From the IMG/VR virus record IMGVR_UViG_3300046492_000199: a DNA stretch of 64,000 bases. One strand, written 5' to 3'. Both the position numbers and the translations under genes were made by a program. Numbering within the stretch: the stretch's first letter is position 1; the number at the start of each line of letters is the position of its first letter. Below, piece after piece: positions 24,754 to 47,468 of the stretch. The notes beneath the pieces were generated by a model. That model had not been told where the DNA came from. It made no database searches and worked only from the letters and a program-made list of their open reading frames with translations. The DNA is from a virus.

Positions 24754-26613
24754 TCAGGAGCAGACGTTACTCACGTCACTCCAACGGTCGATTTGGAACA
24801 TCGTACCAGTGGATGCGTCACGGAAAGCAACGAATTCAAGTGGTTCAACAACGTCTTGGTCGATACCCTGAGCCGCAATGTTATCGCTTGAGAACTTAAC
24901 AGCTGGTAGGGTGTACTTGTAAGTATTACCATCAACGTCAGTGAACTTGAAAGCGAGAGAAGACGTTTCGTGGTTGATGAAGTCGTCATAGAACGGGCTA
25001 CCAGCTTCGAAATAAGCCGTAACAGTGCCGGTTAGGTTGAAACGGCCTGTACCGATACCACGAGCGAACTTAGAACCAACGGCGGGCTGCTGACGCAGTG
25101 TAGCATCACCCTGAAGCGCGATTGACTGAAGTGCTGAAGAAAGTTCAACACCATCTTTTTCAATCGAACCTACGTTGGTCGTAGCGTTCATAACTTCAGT
25201 ACCAGTTGAGCGAAGCGCAACGTAAGGAGAAAGAGCTAGTTTGGAAACGTTCGTGATCTGACGCTTAGTTTCTTTACCTTCGAATGAATACGTACCGGTA
25301 ACGATGGCACCTGAGCTTACGTCCATTGAGAACGAACCTACGCGTAGGCCGTTGTGAACGAAGAACTGGTTAACGTCGTTGTAAGCCGATTCAGCGCTGA
25401 AGCTCTGAGCCACGATTTGCTGGTGAGGCAGTGATCCGGTCCCGTCAGGGTTACGAAGCATTGAACCTTTAATAGTTACACCAAGTGTACCACCGTTAGC
25501 GTCTGTAGCAGGGGCTGGCGAAACTGTTAGAACATCGTCCGCAACAGAAAGGATTTTGAAGAAACCACCAGAAGCTAGGCCACCGCTGAAGTTAGTCGTA
25601 ACAGCGTTGGTAGAAACGTCAGCAAGTGTACCACCAGTTCTACGAAGGTTCGTTACAGTAACTGTAGCGGTAGACACAGTAGCCTTGGCCTGAAGACGAC
25701 CATCAACACGAGCTTGGTTGATAGCAGCGGCAATGTTAGTCGCTGTGGCAGCACCAGAACCACCGAGCGTTACGATCTGATTACCAGCCGTTGCGCCACC
25801 GTCTGAAGACGTTTCGAAAACAACCTGATTCACGCCATCGTAAACCGTGAACGTGTCGTGGTTAGCAGCGTTGGTCGTGAAGTTAATCGTACCGGATTCT
25901 CTACCGGAAGCGTTATCTACATAGATGTTCTGACCGGCGACAAGATTGCCAGCTGCAATTGCAGCGGCAAAAGCATTTGTACCATTTGAGTCGATAGTAG
26001 AAGCGCCGCTAGTTCCGAAGCGAATAGCAGTGTTGTTGAGAATAATAACATCGTTTGCATCTTGAACCTTAGTAAAAGCAGTACCGGCTTCAACAACAGC
26101 TGTAGTTGTTGATACAGTAACTTGAGTTGCGCCGCCAGAAAAAGCAAGAGAAGCAACCTGCACATACTTGTTATTCAGCGGGTTAAGAAAGCCCGAAGTC
26201 TTGAGACGGCGACCTACCACGAAGTAGTCACGGAAGTCTCCACCAGCAATCGAGATGACGTTGTTCGCGGTCCAAGCAACACCAACACCTTTGAAGAAGT
26301 CAAACTCCATTGGGCGGCTCCAAAGGCCGAGCACGAAAGCTTGCATCAGAATGTCGTGAGAACCGGCGCTGAATTCGTAATTAATATCACCGCTTGTAGA
26401 GGCCGAAACTTCAACAACCGAGCTAACCATACGGTCGGCACGAAGTTCGTCAGACGTGACGGTTTCTTTGGCCGCAGCGAGGGAGTGGGATGTGATACGA
26501 ATTTCACGAGTCGCACCAGACGCAGGAGTCGTACCCCAAGTCAGGTTATTTTCTTGAATTAGGCGAATGCTATCGCGGTTACTATCAGCAAAGTTGGCCA
26601 CTATTGTCTCCAA
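24754..26613 (-). CDS. major tail tube protein with large central insertion
   Basis: TSDELRADRMVS, SGDINYEFS, LTGTVTAYF, YTLPAVKF; upstream of chaperones. Confidence 0.85.
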   Translation of the reverse strand: METIVANFADSNRDSIRLIQENNLTWGTTPASGATREIRITSHSLAAAKETVTSDELRADRMVSSVVEVSASTSGDINYEFSAGSHDILMQAFVLGLWSRPMEFDFFKGVGVAWTANNVISIAGGDFRDYFVVGRRLKTSGFLNPLNNKYVQVASLAFSGGATQVTVSTTTAVVEAGTAFTKVQDANDVIILNNTAIRFGTSGASTIDSNGTNAFAAAIAAGNLVAGQNIYVDNASGRESGTINFTTNAANHDTFTVYDGVNQVVFETSSDGGATAGNQIVTLGGSGAATATNIAAAINQARVDGRLQAKATVSTATVTVTNLRRTGGTLADVSTNAVTTNFSGGLASGGFFKILSVADDVLTVSPAPATDANGGTLGVTIKGSMLRNPDGTGSLPHQQIVAQSFSAESAYNDVNQFFVHNGLRVGSFSMDVSSGAIVTGTYSFEGKETKRQITNVSKLALSPYVALRSTGTEVMNATTNVGSIEKDGVELSSALQSIALQGDATLRQQPAVGSKFARGIGTGRFNLTGTVTAYFEAGSPFYDDFINHETSSLAFKFTDVDGNTYKYTLPAVKFSSDNIAAQGIDQDVVEPLEFVAFRDASTGTMFQIDRWSDVSNVCS

Positions 26614-28129: not shown

Positions 28130-29836
28130 TTAAGGAGCCTCGTAACATCCAATATTGGCTGTGCCGCCAGCGGATAGTGCGTTGCCAAACAAATCAATTG
28201 AGCCTAGATTAATGCTAAACAGTGAGTTAATATTCTGCCCCGCGTTCTTAGCAGGGGAAGAAGATTGTAATTTATATGGAGCTAGTGCGGCAATGCTAAA
28301 GCCGTTGGTGTTCCCAACTGGAACAGTGCCTTGTAATAGTGGATCTCCGCTCACTGATACGTTAGTGCTTGTGATAGTTTCTTGAGTAGAGAATGCGCCG
28401 CGCCAAGCACCAATTGAAGTGTAAGTAGAAGGCCCCCATTTGATCGATACTGAAGCTACAGTGCTATAAAGATTTCCAATAAATCTAATGGCAGGCGTTA
28501 AGCTCGTGGATGAGTTGATCAGCTTTGTCGTCGCGCCGGTTAGATAGAAAATGTTGTTGCAGACATATGTGGTTGTAAATTTATCTGGATTGGAGAAAAC
28601 GTAGACACCATTAATCGAAGCAACACTGCTGTAGATCGTGTTATTATAAATAGAATTTCCAGACGCGGCTCTTGCTGTTTCCGCCGTGCCCATAAGAATG
28701 CCTCCCTTAGTAGTGGGAGCTTGTGTGCCGTCGTTTTCGGAGATATTAAAACGAATCGTATTTCCGGTTAGCGCTAATACAGTTGAATCATTATATTGAT
28801 AAAGTTGCAAACCAGAACCATAATTATCGTGACTGTAGCAAAATTGAACGATGCAGTTCTGACACCCGCCGTCAATATCAAAACCGCCGCCGTCTGATGT
28901 GCCGGTTCCGGTCTTGTTGTGGTGGCTTTCACTGTATTGAATAACAGTGCTGGTGCAATCGTACATCCAAATCCCTACCGGACCAGATGCATAAGTATTG
29001 TTTGCTCCATTATTATATGCTTCGCAAAATTCAATTAATCCACCACTGCACTGACCTAAGAGAATACCGCTGCCACAGTGAGAAACAGTAATGCCTGCCT
29101 TGCCGGTACAGTTATACGCTTTGCAATTTCTCACGACAGGATTTGTGTGACTCGCGGCATTAGCTACTAGGCCGTACAGTCCTTGAACCGTGATGCCGTT
29201 GCCTACATAATCAATACAATTTCCGGTGCAGTCATGAACAATACAACTATCAATTAGAGGCGCATCAAATCCAGAAGGAGAGTTGGCAGCATATGCCGTG
29301 TCTCCGGTGTAAAGCGCGATACCATCATAGCCATAACCAGAAACATCCAGTCTCAGAAGAGTTAGGCCTTTTAACTTAGTGCTGCCGAGTTGATCATTAA
29401 TGCAATAAACGCCAGTCGATGTACTGACAGTTGTGCCGGTTCCAACAAAAATTAAATCTTGAACCGTGACGTGGTGTGGATTAATTAGATAAGCGCCTCT
29501 ATCACTATTACCAGAAGCTTGAATAGTCGCTCTTCCAGTTCCATAAGAGCCAAATACAGTTGCCGCACCGCTGTTGCCATAGTGCTGACCTTCTACCAGA
29601 CTAAGAGTTCCAGAGAAAGTTGCGCCACCTTTAAATAGCACCCAAGCCCCAGCCGGGAAGGTGGCTCCGTTTACTTTGGACAGGGTTTGCCAAGGCGTAG
29701 AAGGTGACGTTCCGCTGTTTGTGTCTGACCCGTTAGGGTCAACATAATAAATAACGGATGGTTGTGAGACGCCTTTTTTCGTCACAGGAGCACTGGAAAT
29801 GACTGCTGTTTTTGTTTTATTTCTGGCTAGCGGCAT
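28130..29836 (-). CDS. right-handed beta-helix protein (pectate-lyase-like; putative depolymerase), copy A
   Basis: YYVDPNGSDTNSGT.P..PWQT start; DGGGFDIDGG; N/G/S-rich PbH repeats. Confidence 0.8.
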   Translation of the reverse strand: MPLARNKTKTAVISSAPVTKKGVSQPSVIYYVDPNGSDTNSGTSPSTPWQTLSKVNGATFPAGAWVLFKGGATFSGTLSLVEGQHYGNSGAATVFGSYGTGRATIQASGNSDRGAYLINPHHVTVQDLIFVGTGTTVSTSTGVYCINDQLGSTKLKGLTLLRLDVSGYGYDGIALYTGDTAYAANSPSGFDAPLIDSCIVHDCTGNCIDYVGNGITVQGLYGLVANAASHTNPVVRNCKAYNCTGKAGITVSHCGSGILLGQCSGGLIEFCEAYNNGANNTYASGPVGIWMYDCTSTVIQYSESHHNKTGTGTSDGGGFDIDGGCQNCIVQFCYSHDNYGSGLQLYQYNDSTVLALTGNTIRFNISENDGTQAPTTKGGILMGTAETARAASGNSIYNNTIYSSVASINGVYVFSNPDKFTTTYVCNNIFYLTGATTKLINSSTSLTPAIRFIGNLYSTVASVSIKWGPSTYTSIGAWRGAFSTQETITSTNVSVSGDPLLQGTVPVGNTNGFSIAALAPYKLQSSSPAKNAGQNINSLFSINLGSIDLFGNALSAGGTANIGCYEAP

Positions 29837-39522: not shown

Positions 39523-39554
39523 AAAAAGTCCAGAAAATTAATTCTGGACTTTTA
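39523..39554 (-). terminator. terminator closing the tRNA array
   Basis: AAAAGTCCAGAA-6 nt-TTCTGGACTTTT. Confidence 0.8.
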
Positions 39555-39558
39555 AAGT

Positions 39559-39634
39559 TGGTGGCCCGCCTCAGATTCGAACTGAGACTGGACGCGTTCT
39601 AAGCGCGTTGCCTCTGCCTTTGGGCTAGCGGGCC
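39559..39634 (-). tRNA. tRNA-Leu(TAG), short variable region
   Basis: Cloverleaf GGCCCGC/GCGGGCC, loop CT-TAG-AA, encoded CCA. Confidence 0.9.
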
Positions 39635-39637
39635 AAT

Positions 39638-39713
39638 TGGTAGTTCCTGCTAGGATCGAACTAGCGCATGCTGGAATGTAAATCCAGAGCCTTAACCGCT
39701 TGGCGAAGGAACC
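39638..39713 (-). tRNA. tRNA-Val(TAC) with Gln-like body
   Basis: CTGGA-TT-TAC-AT-TCCAG; encoded CCA. Confidence 0.85.
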
Positions 39714-39723
39714 GTGTTAAATT

Positions 39724-39873
39724 TTAAATACTTAGACCTTTACCATGACGTGTAGGGACGTTATAAAAACTGATAAGAGTTTCATACATGGCTTGGACCA
39801 GATCATCACGTTCAGCCGATGGGGCGGACGCTCTAATGGTCTTCATTACTTTATTAAATTCATTTAATTCCAT
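39724..39873 (-). CDS. 49-aa hypothetical protein
   Basis: MELNEFNKVMKTIRAS...; track start lies inside tRNA-His. Confidence 0.55.
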   Translation of the reverse strand: MELNEFNKVMKTIRASAPSAERDDLVQAMYETLISFYNVPTRHGKGLSI

Positions 39874-39892
39874 AACTTTTGTCCTATGTTTT

Positions 39893-39968
39893 TGGACCGT
39901 CTTCCTTGAGTTGAACAAGGGTATCGCGATCCACAATCGCGCGCTCTAACCAATTGAGCTAAAGACGG
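39893..39968 (-). tRNA. tRNA-His(GTG) lacking G-1, with T73
   Basis: CCGTCTT/AAGACGG stem, loop TT-GTG-GA, CCA. Confidence 0.9.
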
Positions 39969-40320
39969 AAGTTTTTAATTTTTCTCTGGCTTTACGTTTA
40001 TATTGCTTGGATTTCTCATTCCAAGCAAGTCGGCAAGCATCACATCTACACTTTCTGTGTCTATACATTCCCATGGTGCCGTGTTCTGGAGCGTGCTTTT
40101 CGGTATGACACTCGATACATAATAGCTGGCATTTATTTATTTCATCTATCAGAGTGTCCCAAGGATAGGACCAATTAGATGTAACATTAAATTTTTTATT
40201 GGTTGGGTCTATATGATCTACTTCTAGTGCTTCAGTAGAACCGCAGTGAACACATTTATTTCCTAAATGATTTAATAATTTTTCTTTAAATTGCTTATAG
40301 TATTTTACGTTTTTCTTCAT
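39946..40320 (-). CDS. HNH endonuclease
   Basis: CVHCG...LEVDHIDP...CQLLCIECH; C-terminal HG...CRC..C motif. Confidence 0.9.
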   Translation of the reverse strand: MKKNVKYYKQFKEKLLNHLGNKCVHCGSTEALEVDHIDPTNKKFNVTSNWSYPWDTLIDEINKCQLLCIECHTEKHAPEHGTMGMYRHRKCRCDACRLAWNEKSKQYKRKAREKLKTSVFSSIG

Positions 40321-40332
40321 AATATTTATATT

Positions 40333-40407
40333 TGGTTTGCGAGGCTAGACTCGAACTAGCAACCGCCTGATTCAAAGTCAGGTGCTCTACCATTAAGCTA
40401 CTCGCAA
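40333..40407 (-). tRNA. tRNA-Gln(TTG)
   Basis: CCTGA-CT-TTG-AA-TCAGG; T1-A72; CCA. Confidence 0.9.
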
Positions 40408-40413
40408 AAATTA

Positions 40414-40509
40414 TTAAAGCGCTAGGTAAATACCTTCACCCATGGGTTGGTACGAAGCACAAGCTGTTACGGTTAGGGTTAAACAAATAATTGTTAAAAT
40501 CTTAAACAT
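40414..40509 (-). CDS. 31-aa lipoprotein-like peptide (not in ORF track)
   Basis: MFKILTIICLTLTVTAC-ASYQPMGEGIYLAL; lipobox VTAC. Confidence 0.55.
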   Translation of the reverse strand: MFKILTIICLTLTVTACASYQPMGEGIYLAL

Positions 40510-40527
40510 TACATTCTCTTTTTAATT

Positions 40528-40610
40528 TGGTGGACGTAGATGGAGTTGAACCACCAAGCCTTAAGGACCGGAGCTACAATCCGGCGGGCCTGCCAATGCC
40601 CAATACGTCC
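40528..40610 (-). tRNA. tRNA-Tyr(GTA)
   Basis: CCGGA-TT-GTA-GC-TCCGG, variable arm, CCA. Confidence 0.9.
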
Positions 40611-40616
40611 TAATTT

Positions 40617-41003
40617 TTAAACCTCAACGTCGGAATACTTTTCTTTCAGCTTCTTCAGTTGTTCTAATTCTTTATTCCTAGCCTTATCAGCCTTCTTCTG
40701 CGCCGCTGCTTGGCTTCTACGTTTAGCTTCAGCTTTGCGTTCCTGTTCAGCCTTTGCGGCTCGCTCAACCTCATCCCTAATGGACTTGATTGCCTGTAGC
40801 GCGCCACCTTCAGGTTCACGTACCAACACGTATTGATGGACGTTGTTATTAATCTTCTGAAGGAGGTGAAGATTTTGCTGAACGAACTGAAAATCTTCCT
40901 CAGAGATTTCTTCCCAATCTGAGATACCTTGAGTAAGGATTTGTTGGTCGTAATAATCATCCACGCTTATGTTTACATACATGAACAGTTTAACTTTTAC
41001 CAC
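40617..41003 (-). CDS. hypothetical protein
   Basis: 128 aa with C-terminal coiled coil; AGGAGG RBS. Confidence 0.75.
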   Translation of the reverse strand: MVKVKLFMYVNISVDDYYDQQILTQGISDWEEISEEDFQFVQQNLHLLQKINNNVHQYVLVREPEGGALQAIKSIRDEVERAAKAEQERKAEAKRRSQAAAQKKADKARNKELEQLKKLKEKYSDVEV

Positions 41004-41021
41004 GACAACCTCCTTAAAAAT

Positions 41022-41100
41022 TGGCTCCCTTCCTCGGGATCGAACCGAGCTAATCAGTGCTTAACAGGCACGCCCATGCACCAAGCTTGGGTTGAAGGGA
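41022..41100 (-). tRNA. tRNA-Asn(GTT)
   Basis: Loop CT-GTT-AA, T1-A72, G73, CCA. Confidence 0.88.
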
Positions 41101-41111
41101 TAATATAGTTA

Positions 41112-41222
41112 TTATCTATTTGACAGGAAGAAAGAGCACTTCTTAAATTCTGTCAAACCAATTTCATTAATAGCTGCTGTAACAGCTGATTTGATTGCGT
41201 TGTAAACTGTTTCGTCGTCCAT
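41112..41222 (-). CDS. 36-aa hypothetical peptide
   Basis: MDDETVYNAIKSAV... after AGGAG RBS. Confidence 0.45.
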   Translation of the reverse strand: MDDETVYNAIKSAVTAAINEIGLTEFKKCSFFLSNR

Positions 41223-41514
41223 GTCAATGTCTCCTAACAAAAATAGAACCAGAAAGTGTGCTGCTACGCCAAATTCTCTAAGGGTCTTACGTGGCATCTA
41301 AGGGGATTCTTGTCCATACCCTCCCCAAATTAATTCAGAGGCTTCACCCAATGAACGTACCACGTAAACTGCGTAGTCTAGATATTGTTCGCGCAATACC
41401 TAAACATCTCCTTCCCCTGTTGACCTATTCAGACTGTGGACCAGAACTGACTTATTCAACTCGAAACTCTTTAAAAGATGGCTGCTCTTAGGCCAACTTC
41501 CTTAACTGGTATTC

Positions 41515-41605
41515 TGGCGGAAGGTGCAGAGATTCGAACCTGCGGACCCCTTTCAGGGCCTCCTCTTTAGCAAAGAGGTGGTTTAAGCCACTCACCCAAC
41601 CTTCC
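41515..41605 (-). tRNA. tRNA-Ser(GCT)
   Basis: CCTCT-TT-GCT-AA-AGAGG, long variable arm, G73, CCA. Confidence 0.9.
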
Positions 41606-41612
41606 AAACTTA

Positions 41613-41687
41613 TGGAGACGAGAGCCAGAATCGAACTGGCGAGTATCGGATTTGCAGTCCAACGCCTAACCATTCAGCCTTCCCGTC
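41613..41687 (-). tRNA. tRNA-Cys(GCA)
   Basis: Loop CT-GCA-AA, T73, CCA. Confidence 0.9.
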
Positions 41688-41694
41688 GTCTTAG

Positions 41695-42321
41695 TTAAAC
41701 AATCGTTTCTTTAATTCCAGCAGCCTTGGCGCGATCTTCGTCACTAAATTCCATAGCGAAACTCAAGCCACTATCTGCCGAAGCATACAAAGCACTACGG
41801 TTTGCTACTGACTTAAATGCTTGATCGTAATTACCCTTAGTCATATTCAGAGTCGAACCTGACAGAACACCTAGACCGCCGCTCTGACCAAACGCGTCAA
41901 AGTCAGCACCAATGAAGATAACGTCATAGCCCTTTGTCTTAAAATCGTCAATAGACTTTTTAGCATTATCTTTAGTAATTTCGCGGCTCGCATTTTCAAG
42001 GCCGTCAGTTACGACTACAATGGTAGCTTTCTTAGGAGCCTTGAGGTGAATGGTCTGAGCCAGAGTGCCAATAGCGTCGAACAAAGGTGTCATCCCGCGC
42101 GGCATAACTTCGTTAGCTGCAATTGGAGTCCATTCCTTGATCTTCACTTCGGAACGAATAACTTTAAAAGGTTCCTGATTGTCAAAAACGGCAACAGTGA
42201 TATCACCCTTCTTAACACCATTTTCACTCAAGGCAGCGGCGTAAGCATTTACCGCGCCAATGGTTTCGGTCCAGTTAGAAGACATGGAACCGGATCGATC
42301 AATAAGAATATAAATCTTCAA
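41695..42321 (-). CDS. von Willebrand factor A (vWA) domain protein
   Basis: MIDAS IDRSGSM, MTPLFDAIG, VVTDGLEN; TTG start reassigned outside tRNA-Ser. Confidence 0.88.
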   Translation of the reverse strand: MKIYILIDRSGSMSSNWTETIGAVNAYAAALSENGVKKGDITVAVFDNQEPFKVIRSEVKIKEWTPIAANEVMPRGMTPLFDAIGTLAQTIHLKAPKKATIVVVTDGLENASREITKDNAKKSIDDFKTKGYDVIFIGADFDAFGQSGGLGVLSGSTLNMTKGNYDQAFKSVANRSALYASADSGLSFAMEFSDEDRAKAAGIKETIV

Positions 42322-42337
42322 TTTCGTTCTTTCTATA

Positions 42338-42430
42338 TGGCGGAAGAGGTGCGGATTCGAACCCACGGAACGCCTTTCGACGTTCGCTCGCTTTCAAGGC
42401 GAGTGCCTTAGACCACTCGGCCACCCTTCC
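42338..42430 (-). tRNA. tRNA-Ser(TGA)
   Basis: CTCGC-CT-TGA-AA-GCGAG, long variable arm, G73, CCA. Confidence 0.9.
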
Positions 42431-42440
42431 AATTCTGTGA

Positions 42441-42522
42441 TGGAGCACTCCGCGAGACTCGAACTCGCATTTTCGTTCCAGTTAGCTTAGTCAACGTTCG
42501 TAGCGCTGCGGCATAGGAGTGC
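42441..42522 (-). tRNA. non-canonical D-armless tRNA-like gene, anticodon ACG (Arg)
   Basis: Perfect acceptor and T arms, CAGCG-CT-ACG-AA-CGTTG, about 7 nt where the D arm should be, 23-nt variable region, CCA. Confidence 0.7.
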
Positions 42523-42527
42523 GTGTT

Positions 42528-42899
42528 TTAAAAATCTTTCTTAGCGTCACGAAGCAGGATCAGTGAGGTATGATTTTCAGGTAGAAAATATTCGTACACA
42601 AGATCGATCACAACATCTTCGTCATAGTCTTTACAGCTGAAAATGTCAAGATAAAAATCGCCATCTGTTTCGCAGAAGTGGCCCGTAATGTTGGACGTTT
42701 CAATCATCTGGATAAAAGAAATGCCAGCTTTAACCGGATCATGCGTTGCGAAACGCTCGATCCAGAGCGGGCCGTACTTGATCATATCAATCTTTACAAC
42801 AAGTTCGTCTACGAACTTAGCGATATGGTCCTTAGACGTGATGGCGGGGATAGCCCCCGCTCTTGCGTCGATTACGATATGCTTACCCCAATAGTCCAT
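42528..42899 (-). CDS. speD: pyruvoyl-dependent S-adenosylmethionine decarboxylase-like protein
   Basis: GKHIVIDA, IETSNITGHF, YLDIFSCK. Confidence 0.75.
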   Translation of the reverse strand: MDYWGKHIVIDARAGAIPAITSKDHIAKFVDELVVKIDMIKYGPLWIERFATHDPVKAGISFIQMIETSNITGHFCETDGDFYLDIFSCKDYDEDVVIDLVYEYFLPENHTSLILLRDAKKDF

Positions 42900-43298
42900 T
42901 TATAAATCTTCCTTGCACTCGGCCCAAGAAACTGGTTGGTTAGTGATCCATTTTTGAGTAAACGAATCGTACTTCTTTCTAAATCCACCGGGATAAGAAG
43001 TTTCAATGCCGTTCTTATGTCTTAGTTTTAGATAATGAATTGCGTGATCGGTCTTTAATTTCTCTACACCTTCTGGTGTAATTCTGTTATCATCGTCTAC
43101 ATCATTGATATAATATTGACAAAGATAGTCATTGTAATGGATGTTGGACCAATCGGTTAGGCCTATCACATCAATTAAATAATCTTCAAATTGCTCATCG
43201 GCTCTTTGATAATCTTCTAAAATAATGCCAAACTTAAGAGGCTGGTTCATCAACGTTAAAACCTTGACGCTTGGAACCAAAAGGATAGGTCTTGCCAA
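42900..43298 (-). CDS. hypothetical protein
   Basis: 132-aa ORF on array strand; true start uncertain. Confidence 0.6.
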   Translation of the reverse strand: MARPILLVPSVKVLTLMNQPLKFGIILEDYQRADEQFEDYLIDVIGLTDWSNIHYNDYLCQYYINDVDDDNRITPEGVEKLKTDHAIHYLKLRHKNGIETSYPGGFRKKYDSFTQKWITNQPVSWAECKEDL

Positions 43299-43503
43299 GA
43301 TTTAGATAAGGCTCGTAGCGCTCATAGCGAGGCTTGGCGTAGGCAACAAATTCACCCTTAATCTGACGACCTTCGACCAGCTGATCCAGCGGGTGGACCT
43401 TGTAGCCCTTTAGCTTGGCTTCGATGCGGCGCTCCGTAGTAAGTTCAAATTCTGTAACCTTGTCATCGAAAGATTCAATAACCGACGTTGTAGCTGTTTC
43501 CAA
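43234..43503 (-). CDS. hypothetical protein
   Basis: 89 aa, AAGGA RBS, TTG start. Confidence 0.65.
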   Translation of the reverse strand: METATTSVIESFDDKVTEFELTTERRIEAKLKGYKVHPLDQLVEGRQIKGEFVAYAKPRYERYEPYLNLGKTYPFGSKRQGFNVDEPAS

Positions 43504-43533
43504 GTTTAAATTTCCTTATTTATAATTTCTAAT

Positions 43534-43608
43534 TGGCACGACGCCGTGGTCTCGAACCACTCTCTTCAGTTTTGGAGACTGAGGTTTTACCAGATAAACT
43601 ATCGCCGC
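43534..43608 (-). tRNA. tRNA-Trp(CCA)
   Basis: TCAGT-CT-CCA-AA-ACTGA, G73, CCA; two A.G mismatches at the acceptor/T junction. Confidence 0.85.
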
Positions 43609-43616
43609 AAAGAGTT

Positions 43617-43868
43617 TTAGAGAAGTGCTTCAATAGCTGCTTGGACCATTTGATCCGCGCTCTGCTTTGAATTTGCGTATTCTTCTAATGGATCAAGAAG
43701 TTCATATTCCCATCCACTATTGCCTAATGGGCGCTTGCCGCTAAAGCTTTCACCTTCGTCCCATAACACGGATAGAAGGGTTACGAGATATTCGCGAACC
43801 GTGGCAGCGCCAGCGTCATTTTCTTCTTCATTTAATGGAAGTTCTAAAATTTCTTTGCCGGATAACAC
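43617..43868 (-). CDS. hypothetical protein
   Basis: GTG start after GAAAG; FSGKRPLGNSGW motif; track start lies inside tRNA-Phe. Confidence 0.65.
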   Translation of the reverse strand: MLSGKEILELPLNEEENDAGAATVREYLVTLLSVLWDEGESFSGKRPLGNSGWEYELLDPLEEYANSKQSADQMVQAAIEALL

Positions 43869-43892
43869 TTTAATACTTTCTATTTTTATAAT

Positions 43893-43968
43893 TGGTGCAG
43901 CTTCTTGGTTCCGCCCCAAGCTCTCTTGTGCTTCAAACAAGCGCTTTCACTAGATTAGCTTAAACTGC
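43893..43968 (-). tRNA. tRNA-Phe(GAA), atypical T loop
   Basis: CTTGT-TT-GAA-GC-ACAAG; T loop GGCGGAA; CCA. Confidence 0.82.
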
Positions 43969-44080
43969 GAAACTACTAGAAGGGGAAATGGTGGTCAGTC
44001 CATTCGCGTTGCCTTCGTAGCAGGAAGTAAGCGTGTATCCAAGACCATTACAGGACAGTGAAACTTACTTCTACTTAATT

Positions 44081-44155
44081 TGGAGCGGGTAGTGGGGATT
44101 AAACCCACGACATTCTGGTTGGAAGCCAGACGCTCTATCACTGAGCTACACCCGC
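44081..44155 (-). tRNA. tRNA-Gly(TCC)
   Basis: TCTGG-CT-TCC-AA-CCAGA, T73, CCA. Confidence 0.9.
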
Positions 44156-44161
44156 AAATTC

Positions 44162-44797
44162 TTAATAGGACTTACCGTCTTTATATCGTCTTCGTCTACT
44201 ATGTCGGCCTTTACCTACATTTTTAGCTTTATAAGTTGGTGTCATAGCGTGACAAGTAGGGCATAGCAATCTGCAATTCTCTAGTCTATTATCTTTAAAA
44301 TCCCCATTGATATGATCTATCTCAATAGGTATAACTTCACCAAGTTTATGCGTTTCATGGCACTTAGAACACTCTATCCCATTGTTTCTTATTAAATAGG
44401 ATTTAATTGTTACTGAAGAGGCAGTCCCACTTAAAACACTTAATTCTAGCTCAGAGTTGCGGTTGGCTACAAAACATTTCATAGAGCAAAATTTAGAATT
44501 TTTTGTCCTACATTTACAATGAAAACACTCTATTATTGGCCTTCGATCTTTAGGTCTTTGCGGTGGCCCAATTTTATCGTTACTGTGGTCTATTCGTTTG
44601 AAATTATTAAATGTAGCTCCGCAAGACTTAGAACAAAAATCGTTCTTTCTCTTATAATAAGTTAAAGAATTATTGCACCATTTGCAAATCTTTGGATTTG
44701 AGTTATAATCGTCAATTCGTTTTTGTTTCGCAATAGCATTGGCTAATTTAGATTTTTCCGCCCCTAGACGGCCAGCTTCTGATTTTGTTAGTTTCAT
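44162..44797 (-). CDS. HNH endonuclease with N-terminal Cys-rich repeats
   Basis: EIDHING...NRLENCRLLCPTCHA; several CxxC motifs. Confidence 0.9.
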   Translation of the reverse strand: MKLTKSEAGRLGAEKSKLANAIAKQKRIDDYNSNPKICKWCNNSLTYYKRKNDFCSKSCGATFNNFKRIDHSNDKIGPPQRPKDRRPIIECFHCKCRTKNSKFCSMKCFVANRNSELELSVLSGTASSVTIKSYLIRNNGIECSKCHETHKLGEVIPIEIDHINGDFKDNRLENCRLLCPTCHAMTPTYKAKNVGKGRHSRRRRYKDGKSY

Positions 44798-44813
44798 AAT
44801 ACTTTAAATGATT

Positions 44814-44887
44814 TGGTGCCTCCACCCCGAATCGAACAGGGAAACTCGCGTTACAAAGGCGAAGTTATACCATTTAACTATGGAGGC
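44814..44887 (-). tRNA. tRNA-Thr(TGT)
   Basis: Loop TT-TGT-AA, GCCTCCA/TGGAGGC, CCA. Confidence 0.88.
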
Positions 44888-44902
44888 TTTAAAGATTGAC
44901 GC

Positions 44903-45229
44903 TTACGCGTCAATCCACTTAAAAATGTCTTCCCTAGTGATTTGCTTATCACCGTACTTATTAACCATAGCGAGGACGCGAGGCACAATAACAACCACTA
45001 GCTTATTGCTGCTGTGGATTTTTACCTCGACAGACTTGTAAGCCCTGCCATCTAGGAATGCACGAGCTAAGAAAGTGGCTCGATTTTCATTTCTAACTTC
45101 CCATGTTCTGTGTTGTCTCAGGGACCAGAACGCGGGCTTGTTTTTTGCTTTTTGTTTCCTCTCTTCAAAGCGGATAATTTTTGCTTCTTCAGAGAGGTGC
45201 TTAGATTTAACTTTAAGTTCGATACTCAT
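44903..45229 (-). CDS. hypothetical basic protein
   Basis: 108 aa, GGAG RBS. Confidence 0.75.
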   Translation of the reverse strand: MSIELKVKSKHLSEEAKIIRFEERKQKAKNKPAFWSLRQHRTWEVRNENRATFLARAFLDGRAYKSVEVKIHSSNKLVVVIVPRVLAMVNKYGDKQITREDIFKWIDA

Positions 45230-45382
45230 TTGTATTCTCCATTAGATAATTTTTTGTCATTAGTCAAGTGTTTATTTTAACTAAATTAGGCGGGCCTCTG
45301 ATACAGGTCGCACCATTATCTATTGAAGTAACGCACTTTAGGACTCAGCTAAAAATAATCATTATCATTTTCCTATGTTATT

Positions 45383-45458
45383 TGGTGCGCCTACGTGGAA
45401 ACGAACCACGTTAGGGAGATTTGAAGTTTCCTGCATAACCCATACATGCTCTAGGCGC
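45383..45458 (-). tRNA. tRNA with TCA anticodon (opal/UGA suppressor type)
   Basis: GCGCCTA/TAGGCGC, GCAT/ATGC D stem, GGAAA-CT-TCA-AA-TCTCC, CGTGG-TTCGTTT-CCACG, A73, CCA. Confidence 0.8.
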
Positions 45459-45758
45459 TGATATTCTAATTAAAGCTTCGAGCAACTCATCATATTTAGC
45501 TGCGCTCTCTGCCTTAGCTTTTGCGATAAGAGGAATACAATCTTCCACATATCCCAAAATGTTTTTCTGGTTAATTCTACTCTCGCCTCTGAATTCACCA
45601 TCGGCGGCGTACTCACCAGTTATATAGTATTCTCCGTCTCGGTATCCCGGTCCAGAGCCGATATAGTTCCAAAGCTCGTGTATCGTAAGCATTGGGCCGT
45701 TTGAATAATCGCCAGAGTTATAAAGAACGTTTCTGTTGCAATCATAAAGCTGTGGCAT
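45411..45758 (-). CDS. hypothetical protein; 3' end overlaps the TCA tRNA
   Basis: 115-aa ORF with AAGGG RBS. Confidence 0.65.
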   Translation of the reverse strand: MPQLYDCNRNVLYNSGDYSNGPMLTIHELWNYIGSGPGYRDGEYYITGEYAADGEFRGESRINQKNILGYVEDCIPLIAKAKAESAAKYDELLEALIRISAPRACMGYAGNFKSP

Positions 45759-45837
45759 ATCATCCCTTTAAACTTTGGTCGAAGCTTCTCACTCCGCTGT
45801 CGATTGCTTGGCCCATCGATAATGCCGACCATAAATT

Positions 45838-45917
45838 AGGTCTGAGTGGCAAGGATTTGAACCTGCGACCTTCCTCTTCATTGGTGAGGACGCTCTGTCC
45901 AGCTGAGCTACACCCAA
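45838..45917 (-). pseudogene. tRNA-like element with 9-nt anticodon loop, ends ACCT
   Basis: GCTCAGCTGGACAGAGC D arm, TCCTC-ACCAATGAA-GAGGA, GCAGGTTCAAATCCTTGC. Confidence 0.65.
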
Positions 45918-46050
45918 GTTAGCGCCGGACTCTTTCCCGACTGTCTCGCACTTGGCTTTTGTCGAATATAGTTGCCGTGGATCAGACGGTACTTTAATTC
46001 GCGGAGCCTCGACCCATGTTGCGCAACGGGCTTGCGTTCAAAACCTCAAT

Positions 46051-46127
<77 letters not shown>

Positions 46128-46128
46128 T

Positions 46129-46228
46129 TATTCTTTTATTGTGGGGCACCAGTACCTAACAAAAACACCTCGGATGCAGCGAGATGAAGGTTAGGTTTGC
46201 ACCCTGAGTGCCACCCAATAAAAGAATA
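46129..46228. ncRNA. candidate 100-nt rod-like hairpin RNA
   Basis: TATTCTTTTATTG...CAATAAAAGAATA closing stem plus three inner stems. Confidence 0.45.
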
Positions 46229-46446
46229 CACGCTAGGATGAATGAAGAAAGCGGCGTACCTGTTTCATCACTCTTCAATTCCTTAAGACGCCTAGCCGCC
46301 TTCTTTAAACCAGTATCCAAACTGGCACCAGAGGTCGATTCAAGTTTTAATTCTTTGTTACTAACAAGAGGCCAATCCTGTCAAGAACCATTAACCTATT
46401 CGGAGGCAAATCGACACGCCCTTACGCACCACATGGGCCGTAATTT

Positions 46447-46584
46447 TTAGAACCCGTTCTGCCTAGCAATTTCCCTAATATCGCAACGCGAGATACCAAG
46501 ATCGGCAAGTTCCCTATTTGTCAAACGCTCCAATTCGCGAATCGTCTGACGCTGCTTCTTCCACTTTGAGAAAAATTCGAACAT
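46447..46584 (-). CDS. DUF1127 (YjiS-like) small protein, 45 aa
   Basis: TIRELERLTNRELADLGISRCDI; ATG after GAAGGAAA. Confidence 0.88.
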   Translation of the reverse strand: MFEFFSKWKKQRQTIRELERLTNRELADLGISRCDIREIARQNGF

Positions 46585-46888
46585 GATATTTCCTTCTAAT
46601 GTTCTAGTTTTCTCCTCCACCAACCTTCTTCCAATGAATTGGAAGAAGGTCATATTGCTTCCCACGCAAATTAAATTCACCAAAGACATATTAAACTACC
46701 TGTAAAGAAAATGTTTACAGAGTGGAACGGGATGGTCCACAACGACGCTGGTTTTTGCAGAGAACTCCCCCACTACTTACCAAGGGCTGTTTTGTCTAAA
46801 TCCGTGTACGCCGATTATTCCCTCAACTGTCCTTATCACTACGGTTCGAAACGTCGTACAACGTAACGGATTATAGCTATGGCGAAAC

Positions 46889-46964
46889 TGGTGTCAAAAA
46901 CTGGACTTGAACCAATAACCTCTCCCTTATCAAGGGAGTGCTCTAACCATTGAGCTATTCTGAC
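46889..46964 (-). tRNA. tRNA-Ile(GAT)
   Basis: CTCCC-TT-GAT-AA-GGGAG, CCA. Confidence 0.92.
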
Positions 46965-46970
46965 TTATTT

Positions 46971-47112
46971 CTGTTTCTCGGCCACACCCTTCTAGCTTTT
47001 TATCTAGAATTTCGCCGCAATTCACGTCTGATTCGCTGACACCGTTTTTAGCGCGCGGAGTTAACAATTCCGCCTTCGTACTGACGTGCCGAAAGATGTG
47101 GCCGAGAAACAG
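46971..47112. ncRNA. candidate 142-nt multibranch RNA
   Basis: Perfect 16-bp terminal IR enclosing four inner stems. Confidence 0.55.
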
Positions 47113-47172
47113 CACCTTATTTCCTAATATAGCTACTTTGGGCTGCGAATTTTGGAGGTGCCGTATCAGATA

Positions 47173-47277
47173 TTACTTAGTTTCAGAAGTCTTAGATGGT
47201 ACAATCTCTACGCCATTAATATAAACAGCGACGTACTTAGTGCCATCTGTGTTTTTAATTTCTTTAGTCGTTACCAT
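47173..47277 (-). CDS. 34-aa hypothetical peptide (not in ORF track)
   Basis: MVTTKEIKNTDGTKYVAVYINGVEIVPSKTSETK after GGAG. Confidence 0.45.
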   Translation of the reverse strand: MVTTKEIKNTDGTKYVAVYINGVEIVPSKTSETK

Positions 47278-47336
47278 GTCATGCTCCAAAAGTTGTAGAT
47301 AAAAGTGTCGGGTGAAACTTTTATCTTATTATAATT

Positions 47337-47413
47337 TGGTTGCGGGTGTCAGAATCGAACTGACGTGATTGGCTTATGAGACCATGCTGGAACCGCCTCC
47401 AGTCCAACCCGCA
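47337..47413 (-). tRNA. tRNA-Met(CAT); initiator, elongator or Ile2 status unresolved
   Basis: Loop CT-CAT-AA, TGCGGGT/ACCCGCA, CCA. Confidence 0.85.
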
Positions 47414-47439
47414 AAACTTTGTAATCATTTAATGCACGA

Positions 47440-47468
47440 ACTATAACACAGGTTTTTCGTTTTGTCAA
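47440..47468 (-). promoter_or_regulatory. sigma70-type promoter heading the tRNA array
   Basis: TTGACA-17 nt-TATAGT. Confidence 0.75.

What the first reader, a model, noticed from the sequence alone, without database searches (positions are those of the whole stretch)
42441..42522. D-armless tRNA-Arg(ACG)-like gene with a D-loop motif displaced 3' of the anticodon arm
Seen: perfect 7-bp acceptor, canonical T arm and encoded CCA, but only about 7 nt before the anticodon arm (CAGCG-CTACGAA-CGTTG). The following 23-nt segment contains AGCTAACTGGA, resembling a normal tRNA-Arg D arm (AGCTCAGCTGGATAG). Inference: arm order is acceptor-anticodon-D-like-T, with the relocated GG possibly still docking on the T loop. 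It could be a rewired tRNA, a decoy for anticodon nucleases or synthetases, or a regulatory RNA. Standard scanners would probably miss it or call it pseudo.
Basis: partly seen in the sequence, partly recalled or inferred. Interest (0 to 1): 0.72.

Follow-up and report, generated by a model that had tools for sequence, protein, structure and literature searches.

The report
Rewired phage arginine tRNA gene
This 82-base phage gene is very probably a working arginine tRNA in which one strand of the D stem and the D loop lie behind the anticodon arm instead of in front of it. More than a hundred phage sequences share this non-cloverleaf layout, tRNA finders miss it, and I found no paper that describes it.

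Summary
Window 42522-42441 (minus strand) has a perfect 7-bp acceptor stem, 7 nt, an ACG anticodon arm, 23 nt containing UAACUGGA, a canonical T arm and an encoded CCA. ARAGORN and Rfam do not call it.

It is not a one-off. Pattern scans of IMG/VR and a covariance model gave about 120 distinct homologues. All carry Arg anticodons (ACG, UCU, UCG, CCU, CCG, GCG) except two with Ile GAU. Those two are also the only ones with U instead of A at the A20-like position.

Compensatory changes support all three arms. They also support a short new helix: nt 11-12 pair with the two nt just before UAAYUGGA (88/88 and 87/88 Watson-Crick, four pair types each). A Levitt-like 15:48 pair covaries (A:U 113, G:C 3, none broken).

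The segment equivalent to tRNA positions 10-20 has in effect moved into the variable region. The genes sit in phage tRNA arrays and fill Arg anticodon slots that canonical genes leave empty. Here ICG would read 64% of the window's Arg codons.

I confirmed unannotated copies in Felix O1, Stenotrophomonas phage RAS14 and Streptomyces phage TunaTartare. This scan has noted the family before on other DNA. Expression and charging are untested.

The parts
42441..42522 (-). Whole rewired tRNA-Arg(ACG) gene, 82 nt including the encoded CCA. Gene position i corresponds to window coordinate 42523 - i.
   Evidence: Sequence. Model R1 scores it 83.6 bits over the full length. It is the only copy in the window.
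42516..42522 (-). Acceptor stem, 5' strand (nt 1-7).
   Evidence: Seven Watson-Crick pairs with 42445-42451. Across the family all 7 pairs show changes on both sides and 99% of cells are paired.
42514..42515 (-). U8 and A9, invariant. U8 is the inferred partner of the A14-like base. A9 probably takes the place of A21.
   Evidence: U and A in 116/116 members. The roles are inferred from canonical tRNA tertiary pairs.
42509..42513 (-). 5' linker UGCCG (nt 10-14). G11 and C12 form the D-stem analogue and stand for canonical 23-24. G14 stands for position 26.
   Evidence: Nt 11 pairs with the base before UAAYUGGA in 88/88 members and nt 12 with the next base in 87/88, four pair types each. On the model alignment the figures are 112/116 and 115/116.
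42492..42508 (-). Anticodon arm, 5 bp with a 7-nt loop CUACGAA. The anticodon ACG lies at 42499-42501.
   Evidence: All 5 stem pairs covary in the family. C35 is present in 115/116 members.
42487..42491 (-). Linker ACUAA after the anticodon arm (nt 32-36). The first A is 44-like and the last A is 10-like, lying opposite C13.
   Evidence: A-rich and variable in length in the family. The third helix pair, 13 with 36, is C.A here and pairs in only 45/116 members.
42485..42486 (-). G37 and C38, the 3' strand of the D-stem analogue (canonical 11-12-like). They pair with C12 and G11.
   Evidence: Covariation.
42477..42484 (-). D-loop-like UAACUGGA (nt 39-46), read as 13, A14, A15, C16, U17, G18, G19, A20.
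   Evidence: GG in 116/116 members and A20-like in 115/116. The A15-like base covaries with the last base before the T stem: A:U 113, G:C 3, none broken.
42469..42476 (-). Tail ACGAAAAU (nt 47-54), a variable-loop-like return to the T stem. The final U is 48-like.
   Evidence: Length ranges from 3 to about 20 nt in the family. The last two bases are A and U (or C) in all members.
42452..42468 (-). T arm GCGAG-UUCGAGU-CUCGC.
   Evidence: Canonical T54, psi55, C56, R57 and A58 pattern. Four of the 5 stem pairs covary.
42441..42451 (-). Acceptor 3' strand (42445-42451), discriminator U (42444) and encoded CCA (42441-42443).
   Evidence: CCA is encoded in 91/116 members.
39524..47468 (-). Surrounding tRNA array, 17 ARAGORN calls plus one Rfam-only call, all on the minus strand. 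A promoter-like site lies at 47468-47440 and a terminator-like hairpin at 39553-39524.
   Evidence: The promoter and terminator are consensus matches only.

Best explanation
This is a functional phage tRNA-Arg with a rewired core. Compared with a cloverleaf, the 5' D-stem strand plus the D loop (canonical positions 10-20) sits after the anticodon arm, inside what would be the variable region. U8 runs through A9 straight into the strand that stands for canonical 22-25.

G11-C38 and C12-G37 form a short D-stem analogue stacked on the anticodon stem. The following A14, A15, G18 and G19-like bases would make the usual U8:A14, 15:48 and G18/G19:T-loop contacts, giving an L shape. A46 is then presented as A20, the main bacterial ArgRS determinant, together with C35 and G36.

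Host RNase P and 3' processing would release the RNA from the array transcript. Host TadA would convert A34 to inosine, so the tRNA reads CGU, CGC and CGA.

Shown: the layout, its conservation, the covarying pairs, the restriction to Arg anticodons and the genomic context. Inferred: the three-dimensional fold, processing, charging and decoding.
For: Family. Scans of IMG/VR and model R1 give about 120 distinct members, all scoring 52.8 bits or more, while canonical tRNAs score 36 or less.

Anticodons. In the 116-member alignment they are ACG 59, UCU 31, UCG 15, CCU 8, CCG 1, GCG 1 and GAU 1. The two GAU (Ile) members, L077 and L347, are the only ones with U at the A20-like site. PMC9976931 names A20 as the main E. 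coli ArgRS determinant and lists U20 among Ile determinants.

Structure. 94% of cells are paired. The covariation score is 0.91 against 0.23 in shuffles and 0.17 or less with slid partners. The new helix and the Levitt-like pair are supported as listed under parts.

Close relatives. L012 differs at 1 nt, a G.U to G-C change. L002 differs at 9 nt, of which 8 form four double changes that keep pairing. Flanks are 66-87% identical.

Context. 93/108 members lie within 1 kb of a canonical tRNA, and 628/628 neighbouring tRNAs are on the same strand. In 42 loci that also hold canonical tRNA-Arg, only 3 share an anticodon, against 10.4 +/- 2.3 in shuffles. L358 and L327 each carry four rewired genes with four different Arg anticodons. 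The window has no canonical tRNA-Arg, and 64% of its Arg codons are CGU, CGC or CGA.

Felix O1. Its genome paper expected but did not find a tRNA for the over-used AGA codon (PMC3185647). A rewired UCU gene sits unannotated at 25951-26032.
Against: There are no expression, processing, aminoacylation or modification data. In this gene the D-stem analogue is only 2 bp, because the third position is C.A. The single-sequence fold is not unusually stable (z = -0.93), and RNAalifold does not predict the short helix. The discriminator is U73, whereas the arginine-identity text of PMC9976931 names A/G73, although its Table 1 also lists U73. Compatibility of the fold with EF-Tu and the ribosome is inferred only. 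The three G:C Levitt-like cases are all UCU genes of one subtype, so they may reflect a single event. The shuffle tests ignore relatedness.
Confidence: 0.75

Rival explanations
1. A tRNA-like decoy or regulator. The RNA keeps the anticodon loop and A20 so that it binds or absorbs a factor specific to tRNA-Arg, such as an anticodon nuclease of a defence system, ArgRS or TadA, but it is not used on the ribosome.
For: Phage tRNAs are known to counter tRNA-cleaving defences (PMC10264068 and PMC11464382, listed). The odd core could be tolerated in an RNA that need not fit EF-Tu or the ribosome. Restriction to Arg would also suit an Arg-specific target.
Against: A decoy has no need for a 7-bp acceptor stem, a discriminator and an encoded CCA (91/116), nor for six different Arg anticodons. 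It would not be expected to fill exactly the anticodon slots left empty by canonical genes (3 of 42 loci overlap against 10.4 expected). The match between anticodon and the phage's main Arg codons (Felix O1) points to decoding.
Confidence: 0.12
2. A canonical tRNA after all. Either an alternative pairing or an RNA processing step (intron removal, permutation) restores a normal cloverleaf.
For: Archaea and algae have permuted and split tRNA genes (PMC3218864, listed). In the window sequence CGUU (27-30) could pair with AACG (46-49).
Against: Both acceptor strands are already at the two ends. No excision of a single segment can put nt 36-46 back between nt 9 and nt 10, which is a topological argument. 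The CGUU/AACG pairing is broken in the close relative L002. There is no bulge-helix-bulge motif, and the hosts are bacteria. Covariation supports the rewired helix instead.
Confidence: 0.05
3. A decaying tRNA-Arg pseudogene left by a rearrangement, for example near the homing HNH genes of the array.
For: HNH endonuclease genes are interspersed in the array. Gene finders reject the sequence.
Against: About 120 distinct versions occur in phages of Proteobacteria and Actinobacteria, with compensatory changes in every helix and invariant tertiary-contact bases. The gene is 99% and 89% identical to its relatives where the flanks are 66-87% identical.
Confidence: 0.03

Closest known systems
Canonical bacterial and phage tRNA-Arg(ACG), e.g. 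the E. coli argQ-type tRNA-Arg and the Felix O1 tRNA-Arg(ACG) at 28168-28243
   Same: 7-bp acceptor stem, a 5-bp anticodon stem with loop CUACGAA, a T arm with UUCGA, a D-loop motif A-R-Y-U-G-G-A including A20, C35 and G36, and an encoded CCA. It lies in a phage tRNA array.
   Different: The 5' D-stem strand and the D loop lie 3' of the anticodon arm. The D-stem analogue encloses the anticodon arm and is only 2-3 bp. There is no hit to Rfam RF00005 and no ARAGORN call.
Metazoan mitochondrial D-armless tRNAs, e.g. mt-tRNA-Ser(AGY) and Ascaris mt-tRNA-Ser(UCU) (PMC7609411, PMC9427863)
   Same: Only a short connector lies between the acceptor stem and the anticodon stem. Both are natural, and mitochondrial ones are proven to work.
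   Different: Those tRNAs have lost the D loop and the G18/G19 contacts with the T loop, and they rely on adapted organellar partners. This family keeps the D loop, GG, A20, the Levitt-like pair and a standard T loop, and would have to use bacterial partners.
Permuted and split tRNA genes of Archaea and red or green algae (PMC3218864)
   Same: The order of tRNA segments in the gene differs from the cloverleaf order.
   Different: In those genes, processing at bulge-helix-bulge motifs restores a normal cloverleaf RNA. Here the ends are normal and the internal order cannot be restored by excision, so the mature RNA itself is rewired.
tRNA-Sec, tRNA-Pyl and allo-tRNAs with unusual arm lengths (review PMC7609411)
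   Same: Natural tRNAs that depart from the standard 7/5 cloverleaf yet are charged and used.
   Different: They change arm lengths but keep the arm order. None relocates D-arm elements. The review contains no mention of phage or virus.
Rewired phage tRNA-Arg genes noted earlier by this scan (e.g. in Felix O1-like phages)
   Same: Same family. Model R1, built here, scores the Felix O1 gene at 60.3 bits, and its CUC/GAG helix and UAAGUGGA loop fit the model.
   Different: The window gene is the ACG isoacceptor with a long 8-nt tail and a 2-bp helix. It comes from an uncultured soil-type phage related to IMG/VR contigs L012, L002 and L011.

Membership tests
Canonical tRNA (Rfam RF00005 / ARAGORN cloverleaf) | D arm (stem of 3-4 bp plus loop) between positions 9 and 26 | tested here: not met
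   Only 7 nt separate the acceptor and anticodon stems. The D-loop motif lies after the anticodon arm.
Canonical tRNA (Rfam RF00005 / ARAGORN cloverleaf) | Score at or above the family threshold (29 bits), or a call by a tRNA finder | tested here: not met
   No RF00005 match on the minus strand even at E<=10. No ARAGORN call.
Canonical tRNA (Rfam RF00005 / ARAGORN cloverleaf) | 7-bp acceptor stem, 5-bp anticodon stem with a 7-nt loop (U33, R37), 5-bp T stem with a UUCRA loop | tested here: met
   All three helices covary in the family.
Bacterial tRNA-Arg identity set (PMC9976931) | C35 and G36 or U36 in the anticodon | tested here: met
   The anticodon is ACG. C35 is present in 115/116 family members.
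Bacterial tRNA-Arg identity set (PMC9976931) | A20 in the D loop | tested here: inconclusive
   An A follows GG in 115/116 members, and it becomes U only in the Ile-anticodon members. That it occupies the spatial position of nucleotide 20 is inferred, not shown.
Bacterial tRNA-Arg identity set (PMC9976931) | Discriminator A/G73 | tested here: inconclusive
   The window gene has U73. In the family the discriminator is G 46, U 41, A 28, C 1. Table 1 of PMC9976931 also lists U73.
Bacterial tRNA-Arg identity set (PMC9976931) | Charged with arginine by ArgRS | not testable with these tools
   Needs an aminoacylation assay.
   G11-C38 and C12-G37 in the window gene.
   UAACUGGA and ...AAU in the window gene. 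The model scores it 83.6 bits.
Mitochondrial-type D-armless tRNA | Loss of the D loop and of the G18/G19 contacts with the T loop; reduced or atypical T loop | tested here: not met
   GG, A14/A15-like bases and a standard UUCGAGU T loop are all kept.
Permuted or split tRNA gene | 3' half upstream of 5' half, or separate loci, rejoined at a bulge-helix-bulge motif | tested here: not met
   The 5' and 3' acceptor strands are at the gene's two ends, and no such motif is present.

The most novel reading that the evidence does not exclude
Bacterial translation can use an elongator tRNA that is not a cloverleaf. In this reading, phages maintain a whole set of Arg isoacceptors (and occasionally Ile) whose D-stem strand and D loop are transplanted behind the anticodon arm. 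The design persists because it keeps A20 and the anticodon for ArgRS while escaping some host factor that reads the normal D-arm side of tRNA-Arg, such as a defence nuclease or a modification enzyme.
Probability: 0.3. Interest if true: 0.92.

Novelty: new variant of a known kind. Interest (0 to 1): 0.8.

Why it matters
[quoted passage not shown] Natural exceptions are known mainly from animal mitochondria, where the partner proteins have co-evolved.

A widespread phage family with relocated D-arm elements would have to work with ordinary bacterial RNase P, ArgRS, TadA, EF-Tu and ribosomes. If it does, the tRNA core can be built from a different strand order. That gives a natural test bed for which tertiary contacts really matter.

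It also bears on phage genome annotation. The "missing" tRNA-Arg of Felix O1 for its over-used AGA codon is one example (PMC3185647). Estimates of phage codon adaptation and the search for orthogonal tRNA scaffolds are affected too.

The family exists in cultured phages (Felix O1, RAS14, TunaTartare), so the question can be tested directly.

Tried and rejected
- Single-sequence folding gave an unremarkable energy (z = -0.93) and did not recover the T arm. RNAalifold on 108 sequences returned only the three main helices. Thermodynamic tools therefore do not see the 2-3-bp helix, and the evidence for it is covariation.
- Alternative pairings I considered and dropped:
  - nt 9-11 (AUG) with the CAU that ends short tails. 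U10 changes to A or C with no change in CAU.
  - C13-G14 with the CG of the tail. It is not consistent across subtypes.
  - UGGA with the 3' UCCA. It holds only when the discriminator is U.
  - CGUU/AACG. It is broken in L002.
- A second helix, nt 9-11 with the 3 nt right after GGA, is real but confined to the subfamily with an 8-nt linker (20/20 and 22/24). It does not apply to the window gene.
- BLAST of the neighbourhood against cultured phages found only the adjacent tRNA-Ser. No whole genome is held for this window.
- The genome-contig scan gave 120 hits, but only 3 loci (four genes, on MAG contigs L184, L263 and L276) were family members.
- Sphingobium phage Lacusarx, named in an earlier scan note as a relative of this phage, has no member.
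- Seven literature searches found no description. A retron paper that mentions arginine tRNA proved irrelevant.
- I did not test the idea that the layout evades a defence nuclease.

Full report
**What is there.** On the minus strand, window 42522-42441 reads as an 82-nt tRNA-shaped gene. In order it has:
- a perfect 7-bp acceptor stem;
- UAUGCCG;
- a 5-bp anticodon stem (one G.U pair) with loop CUACGAA, anticodon ACG;
- ACUAAGCUAACUGGAACGAAAAU;
- a standard T arm with loop UUCGAGU;
- the acceptor 3' strand, then U and CCA.

The gene starts 5 nt after the stop codon of an AdoMetDC-like ORF and ends 10 nt before tRNA-Ser(UGA). It lies inside an array of 17-18 tRNA genes on one strand. The array runs from a promoter-like site (47468-47440) to a terminator-like hairpin (39553-39524), next to a phage head module. 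ARAGORN does not call it, and Rfam gives no tRNA match on that strand even at E<=10. The array holds no canonical tRNA-Arg.

**It belongs to a large family.** A pattern joining the anticodon loop to AGCUAACUGGA hit 12 IMG/VR contigs, and every hit had the full layout. Two looser patterns each fixed only one end. The first fixed the D-loop-like motif plus the T loop and left the anticodon free. The second fixed the ACG loop plus the T loop and left the middle free. A further scan followed. Together they gave 108 distinct members by a simple structural filter.

A covariance model (R1) then found 116 in the carrier loci and 6 more elsewhere. Members score 52.8-93 bits and canonical tRNAs 36 or less. 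The window gene scores 83.6 bits and is the only copy in the window.

**Only arginine, with two telling exceptions.** Anticodons in the 116-member alignment are ACG 59, UCU 31, UCG 15, CCU 8, CCG 1, GCG 1 and GAU 1. The pattern that left the anticodon free returned only Arg anticodons among tRNA-shaped hits. The GAU (Ile) member, and a second one in L347, are the only sequences with U instead of A after GG. A20 is the principal determinant for E. coli ArgRS, and U20 is listed among Ile determinants (PMC9976931). The base after GG therefore behaves as nucleotide 20.

**Structure from covariation.**
- All acceptor and anticodon stem pairs, and 4 of the 5 T stem pairs, show double changes. 94% of cells are paired. 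The covariation score is 0.91, against 0.23 in shuffles and 0.17 or less with slid partners.
- A new short helix appears. I anchored the sequences on the UAAYUGGA motif alone, not on pairing. With that anchoring, nt 11 pairs with the base just before the motif in 88/88 members that have a 7-nt linker (C-G 44, G-C 27, A-U 13, U-A 4). Nt 12 pairs with the next base in 87/88.
- On the model alignment these figures are 112/116 and 115/116. A third pair forms in only 45/116 and is C.A in the window gene.
- The third base of UAA/UAG covaries perfectly with the last base before the T stem (A:U 113, G:C 3), as the 15:48 Levitt pair does. The three G:C cases may be one lineage.
- U8, A9, the A14-like base and GG are invariant.
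- A subfamily with an 8-nt linker adds a helix between nt 9-11 and the three bases after GGA. The window gene lacks it.

**Reading.** The bases before the motif plus UAACUGGA match canonical positions 10-20. The 5' linker nt 10-14 matches 22-26. The 5' D-stem strand and the D loop have in effect been moved from between positions 9 and 21 into the variable region. The resulting D-stem analogue encloses the anticodon arm, so it is nested and not a pseudoknot. It can stack on the anticodon stem, after which the loop can make the usual contacts with U8, position 48 and the T loop. This three-dimensional picture is inference.

**Evidence of use.**
- The close relative L012 differs by one G.U to G-C change. 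L002 differs at 9 positions, 8 of which are four double changes that keep pairs. Flanks are 66-87% identical.
- 93/108 members lie within 1 kb of a canonical tRNA, and all 628 neighbouring tRNAs share their strand.
- Where canonical tRNA-Arg genes co-occur (42 loci), they share an anticodon with the rewired gene in only 3, against 10.4 +/- 2.3 expected.
- Some contigs carry four rewired genes with four different Arg anticodons (L358, L327).
- In the window's long ORFs, CGU, CGC and CGA make up 64% of Arg codons. These are the codons an ICG anticodon reads.
- In Felix O1 the genome paper noted that a tRNA for the over-used AGA codon was expected but absent (PMC3185647). Model R1 finds a UCU member at 25951-26032, unannotated and partly overlapped by an annotated HNH ORF.
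- Unannotated members also occur in Stenotrophomonas phage RAS14 and Streptomyces phage TunaTartare.
- Only 3 of the 120 bacterial-genome loci fetched held a member, all on MAG contigs.

**What remains open.** There are no data on transcription, processing, charging, modification or ribosome use. The helix is only 2 bp in this gene, and energy-based folding does not support it. Why Arg, and why this rewiring, is unknown. Evasion of a host factor that targets tRNA-Arg is a guess.

**Novelty.** Seven full-text searches found no description. The 2020 review of non-canonical natural tRNAs never mentions phages. Earlier AI notes of this scan report the same family on other DNA. I re-derived the structure independently and verified the Felix O1 claim here.

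Noticed in passing
L077:2425-2504 (-) and L347:870-949 (-): Two members of the rewired family carry an Ile anticodon (GAU), have U instead of A at the A20-like position and have discriminator A. The scaffold seems to have switched identity at least once.
   Followed up: partly
window 45383-45458 (-): A normal-looking 76-nt tRNA with anticodon UCA, which reads UGA. ARAGORN labels it SeC, and Rfam misses it at gathering score. An earlier scan note treats it as an opal suppressor linked to a leader ORF.
   Followed up: no
window 43896-43968 (-): A tRNA found by Rfam only (39.4 bits). Its anticodon loop reads GAA (Phe) and its T loop is atypical (GGCGGAA). ARAGORN misses it, and an ORF candidate overlaps it.
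   Followed up: no
window 45839-45917 (-): ARAGORN calls tRNA-Ile(AAU) here. The anticodon loop CCAAUGA lacks U33, and Rfam gives 28 bits, just below threshold. It may be another non-standard tRNA.
   Followed up: no
window 39946-40320, 44162-44797, 42528-42899, 41695-42366 (all -): Protein genes interspersed in the tRNA array: two HNH endonucleases, an S-adenosylmethionine decarboxylase-like protein (Pfam AdoMet_dc, 46 bits) and a vWA-domain protein.
   Followed up: partly
L315:6311-6402 and L305:1911-2004: Rewired ACG members with 10-12 extra nt after GGA. In L305 the insert can form a small hairpin, so the tail behaves like an expandable variable arm.
   Followed up: no
L200:715-793 (Flavobacteriaceae MAG contig): A tRNA-Ser(GGA)-like sequence with a long variable arm. 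Only 9 unpaired nt lie between the acceptor and anticodon stems, so there is no D stem.
   Followed up: no
NC_005282.1 26003-26395 (Felix O1): The annotated HNH endonuclease ORF45 starts inside the last 30 nt of the unannotated rewired tRNA-Arg(UCU) gene. Its annotated start may be wrong.
   Followed up: no
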